In this document: piece after piece, positions 45,001-54,000 of the stretch
How the letters are laid out: each line of letters begins with the position of its first letter
Numbering within the stretch: position 1 is the first letter of the stretch
Assembly: GCF_056746865.1 (NCBI RefSeq)
Contig: NZ_JBWKMP010000005.1
DNA length: 64,000 nt
Reading direction: 5' to 3' (one strand)
From: a plasmid
Position numbers: made by a program

Positions 45001-48000
45001 CGCGTCTGGCGCATCTTTAGATTCCCAGCCATTTTTCCCTTCAAACCATATTGTTCCTGGTTTATTCACAGATATTTCTGTGACATGTTCAATATTAAGA
45101 ACAGACTGGATTCCTGTTATTTCCAGATATGTTCTTGCGATTTGAGTGTTATCTCGTGGTTGTGATGTATTACTGGTGTCTCTGATGTTATTCATATCAA
45201 TTGCTTTACTGAATTACTGAAGTTCATATACGGATGAAAAGTCGATATTTCGCGGAACAATAACAGACAATACAGTCCCCTGATTAATATATGCCGTGGG
45301 GGGAATATTTATCGTATTGTCCAGCGTTGTTTTTGCCATTTCTTTTGTTGCGTCAGATGTGTTTTCGTAGGTGATATTGCTGTTTGAGCCTGTTTGTTGC
45401 GTGCTGTTTTTCAGAATATCTAAACCATCACCAAGTAATGACAGCAGCAATGCACCACCAAAACGCTGACCAAAATGATTATCGACCCATGCAGGAAGGC
45501 CGGAAGCGCCCAGACTGTCAGTGCCAAGTGCGCCAATGCGCACATTGACATTTTCATCTTTGAGCGTTGTCCAGTTAACGAACACACGGGCTACTCCCTG
45601 CGTCATGACTTTATTCTGCTCCCCGATCAGTGATGCTCCTTTACGGGCAAGAAGCACTTCGCCGTTATCCGACCAGACGTCTCGTGTTAACTGACACATT
45701 GTGATACCGGGATAAGAGGTTACGATTTTCGTTTTGAGCACACAGGATAATGCTGTTCCCGCAGATAACAGATATCGGCGGTTCAGCACAGGGGATACCT
45801 TTCCGTCTGCGTACTGACTGCCCTGTAAATCATCTCTTTCCTGGTTTTTTTCGCCTGGTTCCTGATTGTCGATCTTCACCATTGTGTCGCCCATCAGTTG
45901 TCGGACGGATTTTGGCAATGGTTGTGGTTGGTTTGGATCTCCACTGGCGGTTTGGGGAGTGCCGTTGGCTATCACATTGACGGCTGTTTGATCGGCCTTT
46001 TGTGATGCTGGCGCTGACGGGGCATTGTCTGCCTGTTTCTGTTCTTGCTCCTCCTGTGCTTTCCTGCGGTTAGCGGCATCGAGTTTTTCCTTTTCTTCGA
46101 TGTTTTTCATCATTGTTGTCAGTGAAACGCCATTGTTGGTATTTGTGACCAGTGTCTCGTCAGACTTCTCAAGAGGTGTTTGCTGAACGACCTGTTCTCG
46201 TGAAAGAACTTTAAACAAGATAATGATCACAAATAACGCGGCAATCAGTAATATGATGAGGATTAATATTTTTTTGGGCGCTGCTTTACCTTTTACTTCG
46301 ATAATTCCGCGATTTCCCGCGTCATTATTTTTTTCATCATCTTTATTTTTCATAGCTGAACTTCTCTACTCGTGTTTTTCCGTTTGACGTACCTTTTTTA
46401 TTCCACGGACGATTAACAATTGATGATGTTCTGATATCTGCAACCTGATCACCCAGGCGCAAACGGAGATTTTCAGCCACGTCATAGTAAACCATTGTGT
46501 TTTTATTTCTGTCTCCGTTAACCAGATGTTCATTTCCATCGGCATCAACACGATAAAGGACCGGAATTTCCTGTTTATTAGTCCATCTCATGCATGTAAA
46601 TTCGCCATTATCCCATACCTGATAAGGGAAAATTGATTTGTCCCCCTTGAGTTGATAATGACCATTAATTATTCCACCATCAGTGCATGGAAATGGCTTT
46701 TCAGTCATTACGGTAGCTGACGGTGGTTTCGGATAATTAAAACGCAGAATATACGTGGGTTGTTTCGTGGTTGATATCAGGTAAAGAGGATATATATGCT
46801 TATTGGTCTGAACGGTAACGTTTGTATCCGGTTCTTCTGCTTTTGGACGCAGAAACAGAGTGTTGTCCCTGACCGATACTGACCAGGCTTCTGGATCACC
46901 AATTCCGACATCTTTTATTGTTTCGTCTTGTCCGAACTTAATTGTTGTTTGTGCGCCTGCTTTTACGCGCACATTAAATACATCCTGCTCGTTATAATCT
47001 ACGGTCTGAATACGCCCGTCTCGTTCCGATGGTGTGCCGTACATAGCTGCTAAAGCACCAGGTACTTGTAGCATCGACAAAAGAACTATCGCAGTAGTGC
47101 GTTTAAGCATCATTTTATAACCTCTGGATCAGGTTGGTAGCTCAGAACTTGCAGTCCCAGCGGATTCACAAGGCGCTCTTTTTCTGTTTTGATATCTTTA
47201 TCCCAGTCAAAAGAAATCGTCGAAATCCACTCTGTTGCTCTGTATCCGGGGGCGGGTTTACCAGATAAATCCAGTACCATTTTTTTGAAACGCACCTGCG
47301 CCATATCCTTCCTTAGAAGGATTACTGAATTAATCTGGACCTTAATTTTGTAGTTGTTTTTCAGAATGTTCAGTGGTGAGGAATTAGCACGAATCATGGT
47401 GTCATAAGCTGAAAACACCTTTTGGGAAGACATTGTTTTTACTGTATCGGCCTGTTCCTGGATAGTCTGCCAGTCGTATGCTTCATAGTTAATGAGATAT
47501 TTTGACAGGAAATATTTAGTCTCAACATCCTGATAACTTTCCTTAGCATCAGATAATTGAGGGGCAATATCAGTATATCCAGTGCTGTTATCCACTCGCA
47601 CAAGGAACGGTACAGCGGTTTTTAATGGAGCAAGGGAGGCTATTGCGAAACCAAGAATGCAAATTACAACAAATTCACCAATGGCGAGAATGGTAAATGT
47701 TTTTGCCTTTTTCTTTATGATATCAATTTCACTGCGCTCAAAGTCACGTATGGCCTTGAAATAATCCTTTTTTTCGTTTTTTTCTTCAAATTTCTTTTTG
47801 GTGGCTTCTTTTTTTGAATGTTCATAATAGTTTGTTTTTTCCATTAATAATCACCTGCTTTGATCTGTTCAATTGCTGTGTTTAACTCAAACCACCCCCC
47901 TTTTTTCTGCACAGGATTGGGGGTGTGAGAACATGCACTAATTAATAGCGCGGAGGCAATTATGAGGGGGATTTTCATATTGTTTTCCGTTCTGTATAAA

Positions 48001-51000: not shown

Positions 51001-54000
51001 TAGTGACAGGAAAAACGCCAGGATAAAATACTGCAAAGTTGATTTGACTTTCATTAATTAAAATCTCCAAAAACATCCCAGTCCGGTGATGTTTTCTCTT
51101 CATCATTCGGGGGTTTTATTTCTGATTCATCAGTTTTTTCACGGATTGATGGCACGATATAGTTATTCGCGTTACGAATAACTCGCTCCAGATAAGAAGT
51201 GTTGTTAAATTTCTTTTCTTTAATAAATCCTGTTGATTCGTTACCCGAATAATACAAAGATAAAGCGCGGAGAATTTTTTGATTACTACTACCCTCCTTT
51301 TGTCTCAGATAATTGTCCATCAGGACTGCCGCTCCTGCTTTTATATTTGTACACGGGTCAAAAACTGTTTTATTAGTCAGATTGAGTGATGGGAAATTTT
51401 TGCTGTATATCTGTGTCAGACCTGCACTAAACCTTTTATTTTCTGCTGTTAATTTTTCTGCATATTCAATAGCTCCTTTTTTATCTTTAAAATACTTACT
51501 TGTTCCGTCAGAAACATTCGCTATTACATATGGATTAGCCCCTGATTCAGTCATAATCAGGGCATTCATCGTATCGGGTGATACATCAGGGGCACACTGA
51601 CTTATCAGTGCTGCCAGAACAGCCGCTGATAACTGCATAAGGGATTTATCTCCTGATATTAAATTCGTGAAGAATGTTTTTTCCTGCGGGGGCGACGAAC
51701 GATACTGTCCAGCTCATTAGCGCCGGAAAGAAGTTCTTTCAGCGAGACAATTTTTTCCCTGACAGGTATAAGGGATTTTGCCCCCGGACATTGTTCAAAG
51801 TCTGATTTATACAGGTCGTATAAAACAAGCGTATGTTTTACATCCTGTGACAGATAATTATGTTTATTCTGGATGTTATCTTGTTCGATATTTTTGATAA
51901 TATCTGCTGAACGATGAATTAAATCTGTGTAGATTCGGGTGTTTTTAAGAGGATTTATTTTTATATATTCAGAAGCAAGCTGAATAAGATTGCATCGTAA
52001 TATAAGGACTTCACGAGTGGCAATATCAAGCTCGCTGACATCATCATTATCCTGCATGGGTATCTCCGGTAAAGATTTTCTGGACTGAAGTCCGCGCCGT
52101 AGCGATATATCCGGTCCACATAATGATGTGTCGGATATGCAGACTCCAGTTCAGAATCCCCTTGTCAGGGGATATTTAGTTAATGAGTACAATAGCCTCT
52201 TCTGGAATGGAGGAAGGAACGGGAACGCCCATATCATTCCCCTGATTATCGACAATCTTCTTATTTTTTACTCTTCCTAACATTGCTGAATGTTTTGTTT
52301 GCTGCTGCAAAGCAGACATCAGACCTTCTGTATCGGCAGACCAGATATAAACTCGCTTACCGTAAATAATATGATGAATATCATAAACGGGTGTTATACC
52401 GATTTGCTCAGATGTTAACGTTCCTCCTGAATTACGTTTGTCTGGATATTTATAAAGATAGTCATTGATAACATTTGCGAAATGGACAAATTCAATTGCT
52501 TCCTGTTTTGCAGGAAGCAACTTCATTCGCTGTATGGTTTGGTTATTGTTATCTGTCAGATAGTAACTGCCTATTGACAGGAATATCAGGAGCAAGCTGA
52601 AGAACCAACCCATAGCGATTACTCCTGTTGTGTGTCTTTAATTGTGATTACGCATTGTGCAATATTCCTGAATGCGTATAACGGTTTATCTGCTGAAAGA
52701 TAAAGCATCAGCGTATCTTTTAATGCAGATTCAAAGTTTCCCCGGAAAATAAGAGGAGCATCTATTCTGTAGTTCACAGGAGTATCCCATACAAGATTCC
52801 AGGTTGAAGTACCACACGGCGAACTTGACGCCCATTCGGTGAGGCCATCCCGCAGCGTCGAACCTTTTTTAAGATTCCAGGTGAGTTTTTCTGTCTGTTT
52901 TTGCGGAACGGTGACAGGCGTTAGCGGTTTTTGAGGTAACTTGTCAGAGGAAACTGGTGTCCTGACAGGAGATGCAGGGGTTTTGTCAGGAGATACAGGT
53001 GCTTTTTGTGATGTTTTCCCTTTCTGTTGTTGAAAATCAATCAGAAGATGTCTTTTTTCGGTGTTCTTAATTACTGTCAGACCGTAGTTGCGAAGCATTT
53101 TATCCAGGACATAAGGCCATTGATCGTTGCCCTGCCAGGATATCGTGCGACGGAAAGTTTTCGTTACCTCCGGGGATATTTCAGCCGTCCAGTCCGATGG
53201 GACAATTTCTTTTAATGCTTTTTGCAGCGAGCCTTTACCATCATGGCGAACAAAGTAAATTTGCTTTTCAGGTGTTGATGGGCCTGTAAGCGTGGTGGCC
53301 GGAACAGCGTTGTTAGCGTTTTTTTTCAGAAAACCGCTTTTTGACATTAGCGGTGGTTGTTCAGGACGCGGTTTTGTCTGCTGATCAGTCTTTTGTGCCG
53401 TTTGTGCCTGATGGTTGTTGCTACTGATTGGCTTTGCGGGAGAGAGTGCTGGTTGTTCAGAATGCTGTTTAGTTGCTCCTTTGGCTGCTGTTTTTATCTC
53501 ACCAGATGAAGTTATGCTGTTTGTTGTCGGCTTCAGAAAACTATTATTGCTGCCCTGGTTTTTTGGCGCTGTCGCTGATTGCTCAGAACGTGGTTTTACG
53601 GTTTCTGCAATACGAGGCGCGGGAGTTACGTTTATGGCTTCCTTTTTGAGATAATTATCATTGCTGTATTGAACAGTGCTGTTTGGCTGTGACACGGGTT
53701 GCTGAAGGATCACCCCGTTATAGTATGTGTCTGCTCTTACCTGCTCAATTGTGGTATTCAGTTCATACCAACCTCCTTTTGCCTGTGCGGGTTCAGGGGC
53801 ATGGGAACACGCATTCAGCAATAATGTGGTGGGAATAATAATGAGCTTTTTCATGGTTAACCCCAGGAACGTCCGAACTTACTCATGATTTTTGAGATCG
53901 CCGCAGGGTCTGCGGTCGTGCATTGATTAAGAAACGCTTTTCGGGCATCAAAGGTTTTGCTCCAGCGAATAGATCCCTTTTTCTTTTTTATGATATTAAA

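What the first reader, a model, noticed from the sequence alone, without database searches (positions are those of the whole stretch)
47844..53854. Unlisted VirB7-like lipoprotein and a 411-aa lipoprotein sharing its N-terminal domain
A 44-aa lipoprotein ORF (47844-47978, MKIPLIIASALLISACSHTPNPVQKKGGWFELNTAIEQ) is missing from the ORF track because it is under 60 aa. Its stop overlaps the virB8 ATG, the classic VirB7 position. The 411-aa lipoprotein at 52619-53854 begins with a clearly homologous sequence (MKKLIIIPTTLLLNACSHAPEPAQAKGGWYELNTTIEQ) followed by a Pro/Thr/Gln-rich linker and a C-terminal domain, so the system encodes two VirB7-type anchors.
Basis: seen in the sequence. Interest (0 to 1): 0.35.

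Follow-up and report, generated by a model that had tools for sequence, protein, structure and literature searches.

The report
VirB7 lipoprotein motif reused on PilL
On this IncI2 resistance plasmid, the small lipoprotein that anchors the DNA-transfer pore (TraF, the VirB7 equivalent, already named in the literature) has an old, well-conserved copy of its sequence at the start of PilL, a lipoprotein of the plasmid's separate thin pilus, so PilL probably docks on the same pore protein and may link the two machines.

Summary
All the genes lie on the minus strand.

**What the two genes are**
- The window is an IncI2 plasmid.
- The 44-aa ORF (47844-47978) is traF. R721 and TP114 already annotate it as the VirB7 lipoprotein, but RefSeq usually leaves it out.
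- The 411-aa protein is PilL, the TcpQ-domain lipoprotein of the type IVb thin pilus.

**The shared N-terminus**
- The two N-termini are homologous: BLASTP E=3e-18, and 19 of 29 mature residues are identical.
- The DNA is only 65% identical, so the duplication is old and both copies have been kept.

**What is new here**
- The shared motif belongs to the TrwH/TraN VirB7 family.
- The same kind of ORF sits unannotated in front of virB8 in IncX4 plasmids.
- PilL-like proteins had VirB7-type N-termini in all 12 contexts next to virB8-B9-B10 genes. Some of them match Pfam Cag12. None of 6 other contexts (four I-type or IncI1-like, one chromosomal, one uninformative) had such an N-terminus.
- Three lineages have no separate virB7 gene in front of virB8.
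- Published transposon data show traF is dispensable, and at least 56 of 515 IncI2 plasmids carry it out of frame.

**Reading**
PilL is a second, possibly redundant, VirB7-type anchor. Binding to VirB9 is predicted, not shown.

The parts
47844..47978 (-). traF, a 44-aa VirB7-type outer-membrane lipoprotein. Signal peptide residues 1-15, lipobox LISA|C16. Mature 29-aa peptide at 47847-47933 with the motif P-x-P-x-Q-x-K-G-G-W-F-E-L-N-T.
   Evidence: ORF and TAATG overlap with virB8. Named traF (virB7) in TP114 and R721. Family profile hits TrwH and TraN. Homologous ORFs lie upstream of virB8 in IncX4 and other plasmids. AF2 fusion gives a strand at F30-N33 with pLDDT about 82.
47110..47844 (-). 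traG, the VirB8 homologue. Its start codon overlaps the traF stop.
   Evidence: Pfam VirB8 E=1e-41; annotation.
46343..47113 (-). traH, the VirB9 homologue. Its C-terminal domain (about residues 130-256) is the predicted docking partner of TraF and of the PilL N-terminus.
   Evidence: TIGR02781 VirB9 E=1.6e-57. Sequence matches to TrwF and TraO among solved structures. The modelled CTD superposes on TraO at 1.8 A.
45214..46353 (-). traI, the VirB10 homologue.
   Evidence: Annotation of a 99.5% identical plasmid; TP114 table.
48010..50367 (-). traE, the VirB4 ATPase. Its stop lies 31 nt upstream of the traF ATG.
52619..53854 (-). pilL, the 411-aa lipoprotein of the type IVb thin pilus.
   Evidence: Pfam TcpQ. 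tblastn to IncI1/IncK PilL covers residues 184-411 only. Named pilL in TP114 and needed for transfer in the gut only.
53723..53854 (-). PilL residues 1-44: signal peptide (lipobox LLNA|C16) plus the VirB7-like module CSHAPEPAQAKGGWYELNTTIEQVRADTY.
   Evidence: E=3e-18 against TraF. Only 1 of 29 sites varies among 120 PilL variants. 19/29 identical to the IncX4 VirB7-position ORF. AF2 fusion gives a strand at Y30-N33 with pLDDT 82-89.
53270..53722 (-). PilL residues 45-195: low-complexity P/S/T/A/N/Q/K-rich linker, the most variable long segment of the protein.
   Evidence: Composition. 30% of sites vary. Residues 45-60 have pLDDT about 33 in the fusion model.
53015..53269 (-). PilL residues 196-280: conserved middle domain shared with IncI1/IncK PilL. 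Fold not determined here.
   Evidence: tblastn coverage 184-411. No BLASTP similarity to the TcpQ domain.
52634..52882 (-). PilL residues 325-407: TcpQ domain. Published work describes the fold of the homologues TcpQ and BfpG as N0-like and shows that BfpG binds its type IVb secretin.
   Evidence: PF10671 E=8.8e-15; PMC12531336.
52176..52613 (-). pilM, immediately downstream of pilL.
   Evidence: Pfam PilM E=1.3e-13.
39947..41590 (-). pilN, the secretin lipoprotein of the type IVb pilus and the presumed partner of the PilL TcpQ domain.
   Evidence: Pfam Secretin_N_2 and Secretin; annotation.

Best explanation
TraF is the VirB7 subunit of the IncI2 VirB-type (MPF_T) conjugation machine. It is a lipid-anchored 29-residue peptide. 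Its G-G-W-F-E-L-N-T segment is proposed to bind the C-terminal beta-sandwich of VirB9 (TraH) in the outer-membrane core complex, as TrwH and TraN do.

PilL is the lipoprotein of the plasmid's type IVb thin pilus. It carries an old paralogous copy of that peptide directly after its own lipid anchor. A roughly 150-residue flexible linker follows, then a conserved middle domain and a TcpQ domain. Published structures of the homologues TcpQ and BfpG describe that fold as N0-like, and BfpG binds its pilus secretin.

The proposed mechanism is that PilL can occupy VirB7 sites on VirB9. That would have two consequences:
- It would tether the pilus secretin (PilN) next to, or into, the DNA-transfer pore.
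- It would back up TraF.

What is shown: the homology, its age and its conservation; the gene positions; and the link between VirB7-type PilL N-termini and VirB-type clusters.

What is inferred: the family relationship of the motif, which rests on a weak profile match, gene position and a by-eye alignment; binding to VirB9; redundancy with TraF; and physical coupling of the two machines.
For: **Homology**
- E=3e-18 between the two N-termini, with 19/29 mature residues identical.
- 65% DNA identity, with many synonymous differences.

**VirB7 family relationship**
- Small lipoproteins directly upstream of virB8 in IncX4, Citrobacter, Hafnia, Xenorhabdus, Regiella, Pseudomonas and metagenomic plasmids share C-x3-P..P-x-G-x-W-x2-[ILVM]-N.
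- Their profile finds TrwH (E=2.8e-6) and TraN (E=0.057) as the top two matches among solved structures.
- Read by eye against TrwH and TraN, ELNT lines up with their PVNK.

**PilL N-terminus tracks the T4SS type**
- All 12 PilL-like proteins with a VirB7-like N-terminus lie next to virB8-B9-B10 genes, usually directly after virD4.
- None of 6 PilL-like proteins with other N-termini do. Fisher p=5e-5, though the samples are not phylogenetically independent.
- One subclass matches Pfam Cag12, the CagT (VirB7-like) family, above threshold.
- Three lineages (L006/L028, L010, L031) have no small lipoprotein ORF in front of virB8 but keep the motif on PilL.

**Selection**
- Among 120 IncI2 PilL variants, the motif has 1 of 29 variable sites. 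The linkers have 30-43% and the TcpQ domain 9%.
- The PilL copy is closer to the IncX4 VirB7 ORF (19/29) than TraF is (15/29).

**Structure prediction**
- In fusions of the VirB9 CTD to either peptide through a 30-residue Gly/Ser linker, the linker has pLDDT 32-46.
- FELN (pLDDT about 82) and YELN (82-89) become a strand. The only other strands are in VirB9. PilL residues 45-60 stay at about 33.
- The modelled CTD matches TraO at 1.8 A.

**Dispensability of traF**
- In the TP114 transposon screen, traF is essential in no condition, while every other tra gene is.
- 80 of 515 IncI2 plasmids have a poly-C tract after the ATG, and it is out of frame in at least 56.
Against: - No binding data exist.
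- I could not inspect model coordinates or the predicted aligned error, and I ran no scrambled-peptide control. The paired alignment had only 23 rows.
- The profile match to TrwH covers the signal peptide and the first 11 mature residues only.
- TraF and PilL do not match Pfam P_T4SS_TraN or Cag12. TrwH itself also falls below the TraN model's cut-off.
- The W-to-N spacing is two residues shorter than in TraN.
- Because neither traF nor pilL is needed on agar, this T4SS may simply not need a VirB7 at all.
- A test for within-plasmid co-variation of the VirB7 and PilL motifs was not significant (9 of 120 permutations).
- G-x-W near the N-terminus also occurs in unrelated lipoproteins encoded between virB5 and virB6.
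Confidence: 0.6

Rival explanations
1. Shared ancestry without shared function. An old duplication or recombination gave PilL the export signal and first residues of the VirB7 gene. The segment now serves only as a lipoprotein signal, sorting signal and spacer, and PilL does not touch VirB9.
For: The profile match to known VirB7 proteins is carried mainly by the signal peptide and lipobox region. PilL behaves as a pilus gene in the TP114 screen, needed in the gut only. Another 5' module is also duplicated on this plasmid.
Against: A spacer would not be the most conserved part of PilL: 1 of 29 sites varies against 30-43% in the linkers. The conserved residues lie beyond the sorting positions (G-G-W-Y-E-L-N-T-T-I-E-Q). 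PilL proteins of I-type plasmids use a different N-terminus with the same pilus genes. Three lineages lack a separate virB7 in front of virB8. AF2 orders the motif only, not the following residues.
Confidence: 0.17
2. TraF is vestigial. In IncI2 the working VirB7 is the PilL N-terminus, and traF is a decaying gene kept mainly because its reading frame leads into virB8.
For: traF is essential in no TP114 condition. It is out of frame in at least 56 of 515 plasmids. It is more diverged from the IncX4 ORF than the PilL copy is, 15 against 19 of 29. Some relatives have no separate virB7 in front of virB8.
Against: 435 of 515 plasmids keep an intact frame with a normal signal peptide. Seventeen of the 26 identical residues use different codons, which argues for long purifying selection on both copies. 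pilL mutants still transfer on agar, so something else, plausibly TraF, must supply VirB7 function there if any is needed.
Confidence: 0.13
3. The motif binds something other than VirB9, for example VirB10, peptidoglycan or the PilN secretin. The two proteins share that other partner.
For: No experimental partner is known. The AF2 test offered only VirB9 as a partner.
Against: The small ORFs occur in plasmids with no pilus genes annotated near the match, namely IncX4 and a Citrobacter plasmid. This rules out PilN as the common partner. In solved complexes TrwH and TraN bind the VirB9 C-terminal domain.
Confidence: 0.07

Closest known systems
TrwH (R388) and TraN (pKM101), the classical short VirB7 lipoproteins
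   Same: Length of 44-48 aa. Almost the same lipobox: LISAC in TraN and TraF, LLSAC in TrwH. A Pro-rich stretch follows the Cys, then a [PE]-[VL]-N-[KT] element about 17-18 residues after it. The gene lies directly upstream of virB8. They are the top two solved-structure matches for the family profile.
   Different: TraF has G-G-W-F-E-L-N-T, with a shorter W-to-N spacing and no Pro before the [VL]-N. It does not reach the Pfam TraN threshold. Published data show it is dispensable for transfer; from my own knowledge, not checked here, VirB7 is usually needed to stabilise VirB9.
Xanthomonas citri VirB7 (XAC2622), a VirB7 motif plus an N0 domain
   Same: Lipobox, a short disordered VirB9-binding segment, then a globular outer-membrane-transport domain. 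Published work describes the TcpQ/BfpG fold as N0-like and similar to the XAC2622 C-terminal domain.
   Different: PilL has a 150-residue linker and two C-terminal domains. Its TcpQ domain belongs to a pilus-secretin partner family, and it is encoded with pilM, not in the virB7 position. It coexists with a short VirB7. No Pfam Cag12 or N0 match was found for the IncI2 protein itself.
PilL of IncI1 plasmid R64 and its relatives
   Same: Lipoprotein with a conserved middle domain and a TcpQ domain (29-32% identity over residues 184-411). Followed by pilM and part of the thin-pilus gene set with a shufflon adhesin.
   Different: The N-terminus after the lipid anchor is unrelated (PALVFVDGQISES...). 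Those plasmids use an I-type (Dot/Icm-like) transfer system with no VirB9 gene near the pilus genes.
Cag12-TcpQ fusion lipoproteins of other VirB-type plasmids with thin-pilus genes (for example P0197, P0176, P0189)
   Same: Same gene neighbourhood: after virD4 and before pilM-pilN. Same logic, with a VirB7-family N-terminal part fused to TcpQ.
   Different: Their N-terminal part is a roughly 90-residue Cag12 domain recognised by Pfam. The IncI2 protein has only the roughly 29-residue short motif.

Membership tests
VirB7 (short TrwH/TraN type) | Signal peptide with lipobox Cys, and no Asp at +2 (outer-membrane sorting) | tested here: met
   MKIPLIIASALLISA|CSH. Same LISAC as TraN.
VirB7 (short TrwH/TraN type) | Mature length of about 30-45 residues or fewer | tested here: met
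   29 mature residues. The stated range is from PMC3093366.
VirB7 (short TrwH/TraN type) | Gene directly upstream of virB8 in the virB operon | tested here: met
   The stop overlaps the virB8 ATG. The same position is seen in 15 or more relatives.
VirB7 (short TrwH/TraN type) | Detectable sequence relationship to characterised VirB7 proteins | tested here: inconclusive
   The family profile hits TrwH at E=2.8e-6 and TraN at E=0.057 as the top two solved-structure matches, but only over the signal peptide plus 11 mature residues. The single sequence finds nothing. No Pfam TraN hit; TrwH itself scores only 18 bits against a cut-off of 27.
VirB7 (short TrwH/TraN type) | Binds the VirB9 C-terminal domain through the [P]-[ILV]-N-[K] region | tested here: inconclusive
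   ELNT lines up with PVNK when read by eye against TrwH and TraN. The AF2 fusion orders F30-N33 as a strand at pLDDT about 82. This is a prediction only, with no coordinates inspected.
VirB7 (short TrwH/TraN type) | Needed for T4SS function or VirB9 stability (usual, not strictly defining) | not testable with these tools
   The published TP114 transposon screen scores traF as essential in no condition. At least 56 of 515 natural plasmids have it out of frame.
PilL (type IVb thin-pilus lipoprotein) | Lipoprotein signal | tested here: met
   MKKLIIIPTTLLLNA|CSH. The Asn at -2 is unusual.
PilL (type IVb thin-pilus lipoprotein) | C-terminal TcpQ domain, and homology to IncI1 PilL | tested here: met
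   PF10671 E=8.8e-15. tblastn to annotated pilL genes at 29-32% identity, E down to 6e-26.
PilL (type IVb thin-pilus lipoprotein) | Encoded with pilM and the pilN-pilV genes | tested here: met
   pilM follows directly. pilN and the genes after it lie beyond the tra genes.
VirB7-N0 fusion (XAC2622 / Cag12 type) | Recognisable Cag12 or N0 domain joined to a VirB7 motif | tested here: not met
   No Cag12 match for IncI2 PilL at E<=0.1. Relatives P0197, P0176 and P0189 do match. The N0-like fold of TcpQ is taken from the literature, not tested here.

The most novel reading that the evidence does not exclude
PilL is a general adaptor that joins the thin-pilus secretin to the conjugative pore. Its N-terminal module is matched to the type of transfer system: a VirB7-type peptide or Cag12 domain for VirB-type systems, and other modules for I-type plasmids and for chromosomal islands. 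After the pilus retracts, the recipient would then be pulled onto the DNA-transfer channel. In plasmids with no virB7 gene in front of virB8, PilL would be the only VirB7.
Probability: 0.3. Interest if true: 0.7.

Novelty: new variant of a known kind. Interest (0 to 1): 0.5.

Why it matters
IncI2 plasmids are major carriers of mcr-1 colistin resistance, and they transfer at very high rates in the gut because of their thin pilus.

If PilL docks on VirB9, three things follow:
- The pilus that captures recipients and the pore that delivers DNA would be physically joined. That would explain how mating-pair stabilisation feeds directly into transfer.
- It would explain a published oddity: traF is the only core T4SS gene that can be lost without effect.
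- It would show that 'VirB7 motif plus N0-type domain' proteins are not a Xanthomonas peculiarity but recur in plasmids.

There is also a practical annotation point. The VirB7 ORF is routinely missed in IncI2 and IncX4 records, which has led to published statements that the IncX4 system lacks VirB7.

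Tried and rejected
- **Searches with the 44-aa protein alone.** They found only near-identical copies, nothing among solved structures, and no Pfam or NCBIfam family.
- **Word-indexed search with PilL.** It was swamped by variants at least 98% identical. The 50%-representative search was needed instead.
- **Profile search for more VirB9 C-terminal domains.** It returned only 17 mostly partial proteins, so the AF2 alignments stayed shallow.
- **Klebsiella aerogenes plasmid (L005).** It looked like a diverged relative but is an ordinary IncI2 with frameshift errors.
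- **Internal repeat in PilL.** I looked for similarity between the middle domain and the TcpQ domain and found none by BLASTP. I therefore do not call the middle domain TcpQ-like.
- **Co-variation test.** I asked whether the VirB7 and PilL motifs match better within a plasmid than between plasmids. The result was not significant, 9 of 120 permutations with n=5.
- **The 115-132-aa lipoproteins between virB5 and virB6.** I considered whether they could be the missing VirB7 in lineages without a small ORF. I rejected this from memory, unchecked, because they sit where pKM101 has its entry-exclusion gene. They also lack the Pro-rich segment followed by [ILV]-N.
- **Recent gene conversion.** Rejected as the origin of the similarity, because the DNA is only 65% identical.

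Full report
**What the window is.** The region is 99.1-99.9% identical to the best-matching IncI2 plasmids, among 518 matching plasmid records from Escherichia, Salmonella, Shigella and Klebsiella. Those inspected are typed IncI2, relaxase MOBP, mating-pair formation MPF_T. All genes in the finding lie on the minus strand. The order in the direction of transcription is:
- kikA/trbM (53857-54180), pilL (52619-53854), pilM (52176-52613), ygeA (51659-52057);
- virB1 (51054-51638), virB2 (50764-51054), virB3 (50373-50693), virB4 (48010-50367);
- the 44-aa ORF (47844-47978);
- virB8 (47110-47844), virB9 (46343-47113), virB10 (45214-46353), virB11 (44140-45195), virD4 (42166-44136);
- a P-loop ORF (41583-42119) and pilN (39947-41590).

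virB5 and virB6 lie about 4 kb upstream of virB1.

**Checking the observation.**
- It has a typical lipoprotein signal (LISA|C16) with Ser at +2.
- Its TAA stop shares a base with the virB8 ATG.
- The 411-aa protein starts with a similar signal (LLNA|C16) and a closely related mature sequence.
- BLASTP gives 26/44 identities without gaps, E=3e-18.
- Over the mature 29 residues, 19 are identical. No shuffle out of 200,000 exceeded 9.
- At the DNA level the two stretches are only 65% identical, and 17 of the 26 identical residues use different codons.

The duplication is therefore old, and both copies have been held by selection on the protein. Residues 45-195 of the large protein are a P/S/T/A/N/Q/K-rich low-complexity segment, and the C-terminus is a Pfam TcpQ domain.

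**What was already known.**
- The small ORF is traF. [quoted passage not shown]
- The TP114 study lists TP114-016 as 'R721 traF (virB7)' (PMC7508951, Supplementary Data 1).
- A 2025 survey counts 12 VirB/D4 subunits in IncI2 and contrasts this with IncX4, which it says lacks VirB3 and VirB7 (PMC11873049).
- RefSeq nevertheless omits the ORF in most of the IncI2 plasmids listed among 297 E. coli genomes, and calls it hypothetical in a few.
- The large protein is pilL (TP114-009). It is homologous to IncI1/IncK PilL over residues 184-411 only.
- In five full-text searches I found no paper that mentions the shared N-terminus.

**Is traF really a VirB7?** The single sequence is too short to find anything beyond its own copies, so I collected relatives by position.
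- A tblastn search of plasmids found an unannotated 44-aa ORF directly upstream of virB8 in IncX4 plasmids (MRATIALLLICFLSSCSSPPQPKQAEGGWYELNTTIQDVKARTM).
- It also found a 46-aa 'lipoprotein' in a Citrobacter plasmid.
- A scan of one genome per species with a VirB8 alignment gave 20 loci. In most of them a small lipoprotein ORF ends at or just before virB8.

After the lipid-anchor Cys these ORFs share a Pro-rich stretch, G-x-W, and [ILVM]-N two residues later:

| Source | Sequence after the Cys |
|---|---|
| Hafnia | CSSPPVPPEPTGEWTPINN |
| Xenorhabdus | ...ADEWIEINK |
| Regiella / Fukatsuia | ...EPSGQWQYVNQ |
| Pseudomonas plasmids (about 100-aa versions) | CGSAPKLSEPEGQWEDMPF |

 A profile of eleven such sequences, searched against all solved structures, gave TrwH of R388 (E=2.8e-6) and TraN of pKM101 (E=0.057) as its two best hits. 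Both are VirB7 subunits seen bound to VirB9 in core-complex structures.

Reading TraF by eye against TrwH (CASAPKPKQPSDFNREPVNK) and TraN ([21 protein letters not shown]), TraF's ELNT lines up with their PVNK. Two caveats apply. The profile alignment itself covers only the signal peptide and the first 11 mature residues. The Pfam TraN model is too weak to judge, since TrwH itself scores below its cut-off. On size, lipobox, position and motif, I accept traF as a diverged member of the short VirB7 family.

**Is the PilL N-terminus a VirB7 module, or a leftover?** Four lines of evidence point to function.

*1. Conservation.* Among 120 distinct IncI2 PilL variants:

| Region | Variable sites |
|---|---|
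| Motif, residues 16-44 | 1 of 29 (3%) |
| Two linkers | 30% and 43% |
| Middle domain | 20% |
| TcpQ domain | 9% |

 The PilL copy is also closer to the IncX4 VirB7 ORF (19/29) than IncI2 TraF is (15/29).

*2. The N-terminus tracks the transfer system, not the pilus.*
- PilL proteins of IncK/IncI1-type plasmids have an unrelated N-terminus (PALVFVDGQISES...) although they serve the same kind of pilus.
- In a search of 1.84 billion representatives, many TcpQ lipoproteins begin CSSPPxLxEPxG[DE][WF]xx[FVLA][NED].
- I looked up or already held the gene neighbourhoods of 12 PilL-like proteins with a VirB7-like N-terminus. All 12 lie in a virB8-virB9-virB10 cluster, usually right after virD4 and before pilM-pilN.
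- Six proteins with other N-termini were checked. Two are on plasmids typed MPF_I, one lies beside a DotD gene, two are in IncI1-like arrangements, and one is chromosomal. None has virB genes within the flanking sequence examined, which was up to 10 kb for four of them and much shorter for the two typed plasmids.
- Fisher's test gives p=5e-5, but the samples are related, so this is indicative only.
- One subclass (P0197, P0176, P0189) matches Pfam Cag12, the family of the Helicobacter VirB7-like lipoprotein CagT, above the curated threshold and in front of the TcpQ domain.

*3. Lineages with no separate VirB7 in front of virB8.* I found no small lipoprotein ORF between virB6 and virB8 in three lineages, although PilL keeps the motif:
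- the Salmonella plasmid pR18.0186_49k and its S. diarizonae relative (L006/L028);
- Citrobacter sp. NCU1 (L010);
- a metagenomic plasmid (L031).

*4. Structure prediction.* I fused the TraH (VirB9) C-terminal domain through a (GGGGS)6 linker to TraF(16-44) or to PilL(16-60), with a 23-row alignment pairing each VirB9 with its own peptide.
- In both models the VirB9 domain is confident (pLDDT 85-93) and the linker is not (32-46).
- The motif becomes a four-residue strand, FELN or YELN, followed by a short helix. The pLDDT is about 82 for TraF and 82-89 for PilL.
- PilL residues 45-60 fall to about 33.
- The peptide has only one strand, and every other strand is in VirB9, so the strand must pair with VirB9.
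- The modelled domain superposes on TraO at 1.8 A, and the 12 best structural matches are all VirB9-family chains.
- I could not inspect coordinates or the predicted aligned error, and had no scrambled control. This is supporting evidence, not decisive.

**Dispensability of traF.** The TP114 high-density transposon screen scores traF as essential in no replicate of any condition. virB1-B6, B8-B11 and virD4 are essential for transfer on agar. pilL, like the other pil genes, is needed only in the mouse gut.

Natural variation agrees with this:

| traF start region | IncI2 plasmid records (of 515) |
|---|---|
| Window form, ATGAAAATCCCCCTC | 435 |
| Poly-C form, total | 80 |
| Poly-C, C6 (out of frame) | 20 |
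| Poly-C, C7 (the only in-frame length) | 8 |
| Poly-C, C8 (out of frame) | 36 |
| Poly-C, other lengths or variants | 16 |

 At least 56 plasmids therefore have the ATG out of frame. These plasmids are typed as conjugative, and PilL in one of them (L001) has an unchanged N-terminus. This fits back-up by PilL. It fits equally well a T4SS that needs no VirB7, and the available data cannot separate the two.

**Most likely mechanism.** TraF is the canonical short VirB7. PilL is a thin-pilus lipoprotein that carries a VirB7-type docking peptide on a long flexible tether. [quoted passage not shown] X. citri VirB7 is itself 'a VirB7 motif plus an N0 domain' (PMC3093366).

PilL thus has the same building plan, but its globular end belongs to the pilus. 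I propose that it occupies VirB7 sites on VirB9 and so places the PilN secretin beside the conjugative pore, while also being able to stand in for TraF. I put about 0.6 on this overall:
- traF being VirB7: about 0.9;
- the PilL motif binding VirB9: about 0.6;
- functional redundancy: about 0.45.

**Rivals.**
- The shared segment is only an export signal and spacer inherited by duplication (0.17).
- traF is vestigial and PilL is the working VirB7 (0.13).
- The motif binds a different common partner (0.07).

PilN is excluded as that common partner, because the IncX4 and Citrobacter plasmids have the small ORF with no pilus genes annotated near it.

**Novelty and score.** The VirB7 call and the identity of PilL are already known. 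Three things appear to be new:
- the recognition that PilL proteins linked to VirB-type systems carry VirB7-type N-termini;
- the finding that some plasmids have no other VirB7 in front of virB8;
- the fact that this offers an explanation for the published dispensability of traF.

This is a new variant of a known kind (VirB7 plus N0-type fusions). It is testable with simple genetics and of moderate interest to people who work on conjugation, so I score interest at 0.5.

Noticed in passing
window 47960-47978 (traF start), compared with loci L001, L038, L039, L040: 80 of 515 IncI2 plasmid records replace AAAAT after the traF ATG with a poly-C tract of variable length: C6 in 20 records, C7 in 8, C8 in 36. 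Only C7 keeps the frame. One record (NZ_LS992189.1) holds two copies, one C6 and one C7. This could be a phase-variable tract, gene decay or homopolymer sequencing error.
   Followed up: partly
L003 4944-5078 (IncX4 plasmid pLSU61-2) and about 60 other IncX4 records: IncX4 plasmids carry an unannotated 44-aa VirB7-type lipoprotein ORF ending at the virB8 start, and an annotated VirB3. A 2025 paper (PMC11873049) states that the IncX4 T4SS lacks VirB3 and VirB7.
   Followed up: partly
window 54125-54203 and 55450-55528: A 79-bp direct repeat, 78/79 identical. It holds a terminator-like hairpin, a GGAGG ribosome-binding site, the ATG and the first 11 codons (MKSIILSMVAA). It is shared by kikA/trbM and the lipoprotein gene at 54846-55541, and the two copies bracket a RelE/ParE toxin-antitoxin pair. 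This is a second, much more recent, case of a duplicated 5' module on this plasmid.
   Followed up: partly
window 41583-42119 (minus strand): A 178-aa P-loop ORF lies between virD4 and pilN. RefSeq annotates it as a 'sigma 54-interacting transcriptional regulator'. It starts with an (ATGAAT)5 repeat that encodes NMNMNMNMNM. At least 80% of the 751-bp query spanning it is covered in 449 of 516 IncI2 records; in L001 the virD4-pilN gap is only about 50 nt.
   Followed up: partly
window 39947-53854: The thin-pilus genes are split. pilL-pilM lie upstream of the virB genes and pilN-pilV downstream, so the whole T4SS cluster sits inside the pil gene set. Related VirB-type plasmids with thin-pilus genes have virB...virD4-pilL-pilM-pilN in one run (L031, L032, L034, L041).
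   Followed up: no
L017-L027 (Pseudomonas plasmid contigs), about 150-490 nt upstream of virB8: The VirB7 position holds 88-109-aa lipoproteins with the same N-terminal motif (CGSAPKLSEPEGQWEDMPF), followed by a Pro/Ala-rich tail that ends in a conserved ...CSAN. This is an extended VirB7 of unknown significance.
   Followed up: no
P0143, P0146, P0150, P0177, P0180 and others; L007, L008: PilL proteins of I-type plasmids share their own conserved N-terminal element after the lipid anchor (for example PALVFVDGQISES..AQ..L, xFVDxQI). It might be the counterpart module for the I-type core complex.
   Followed up: no
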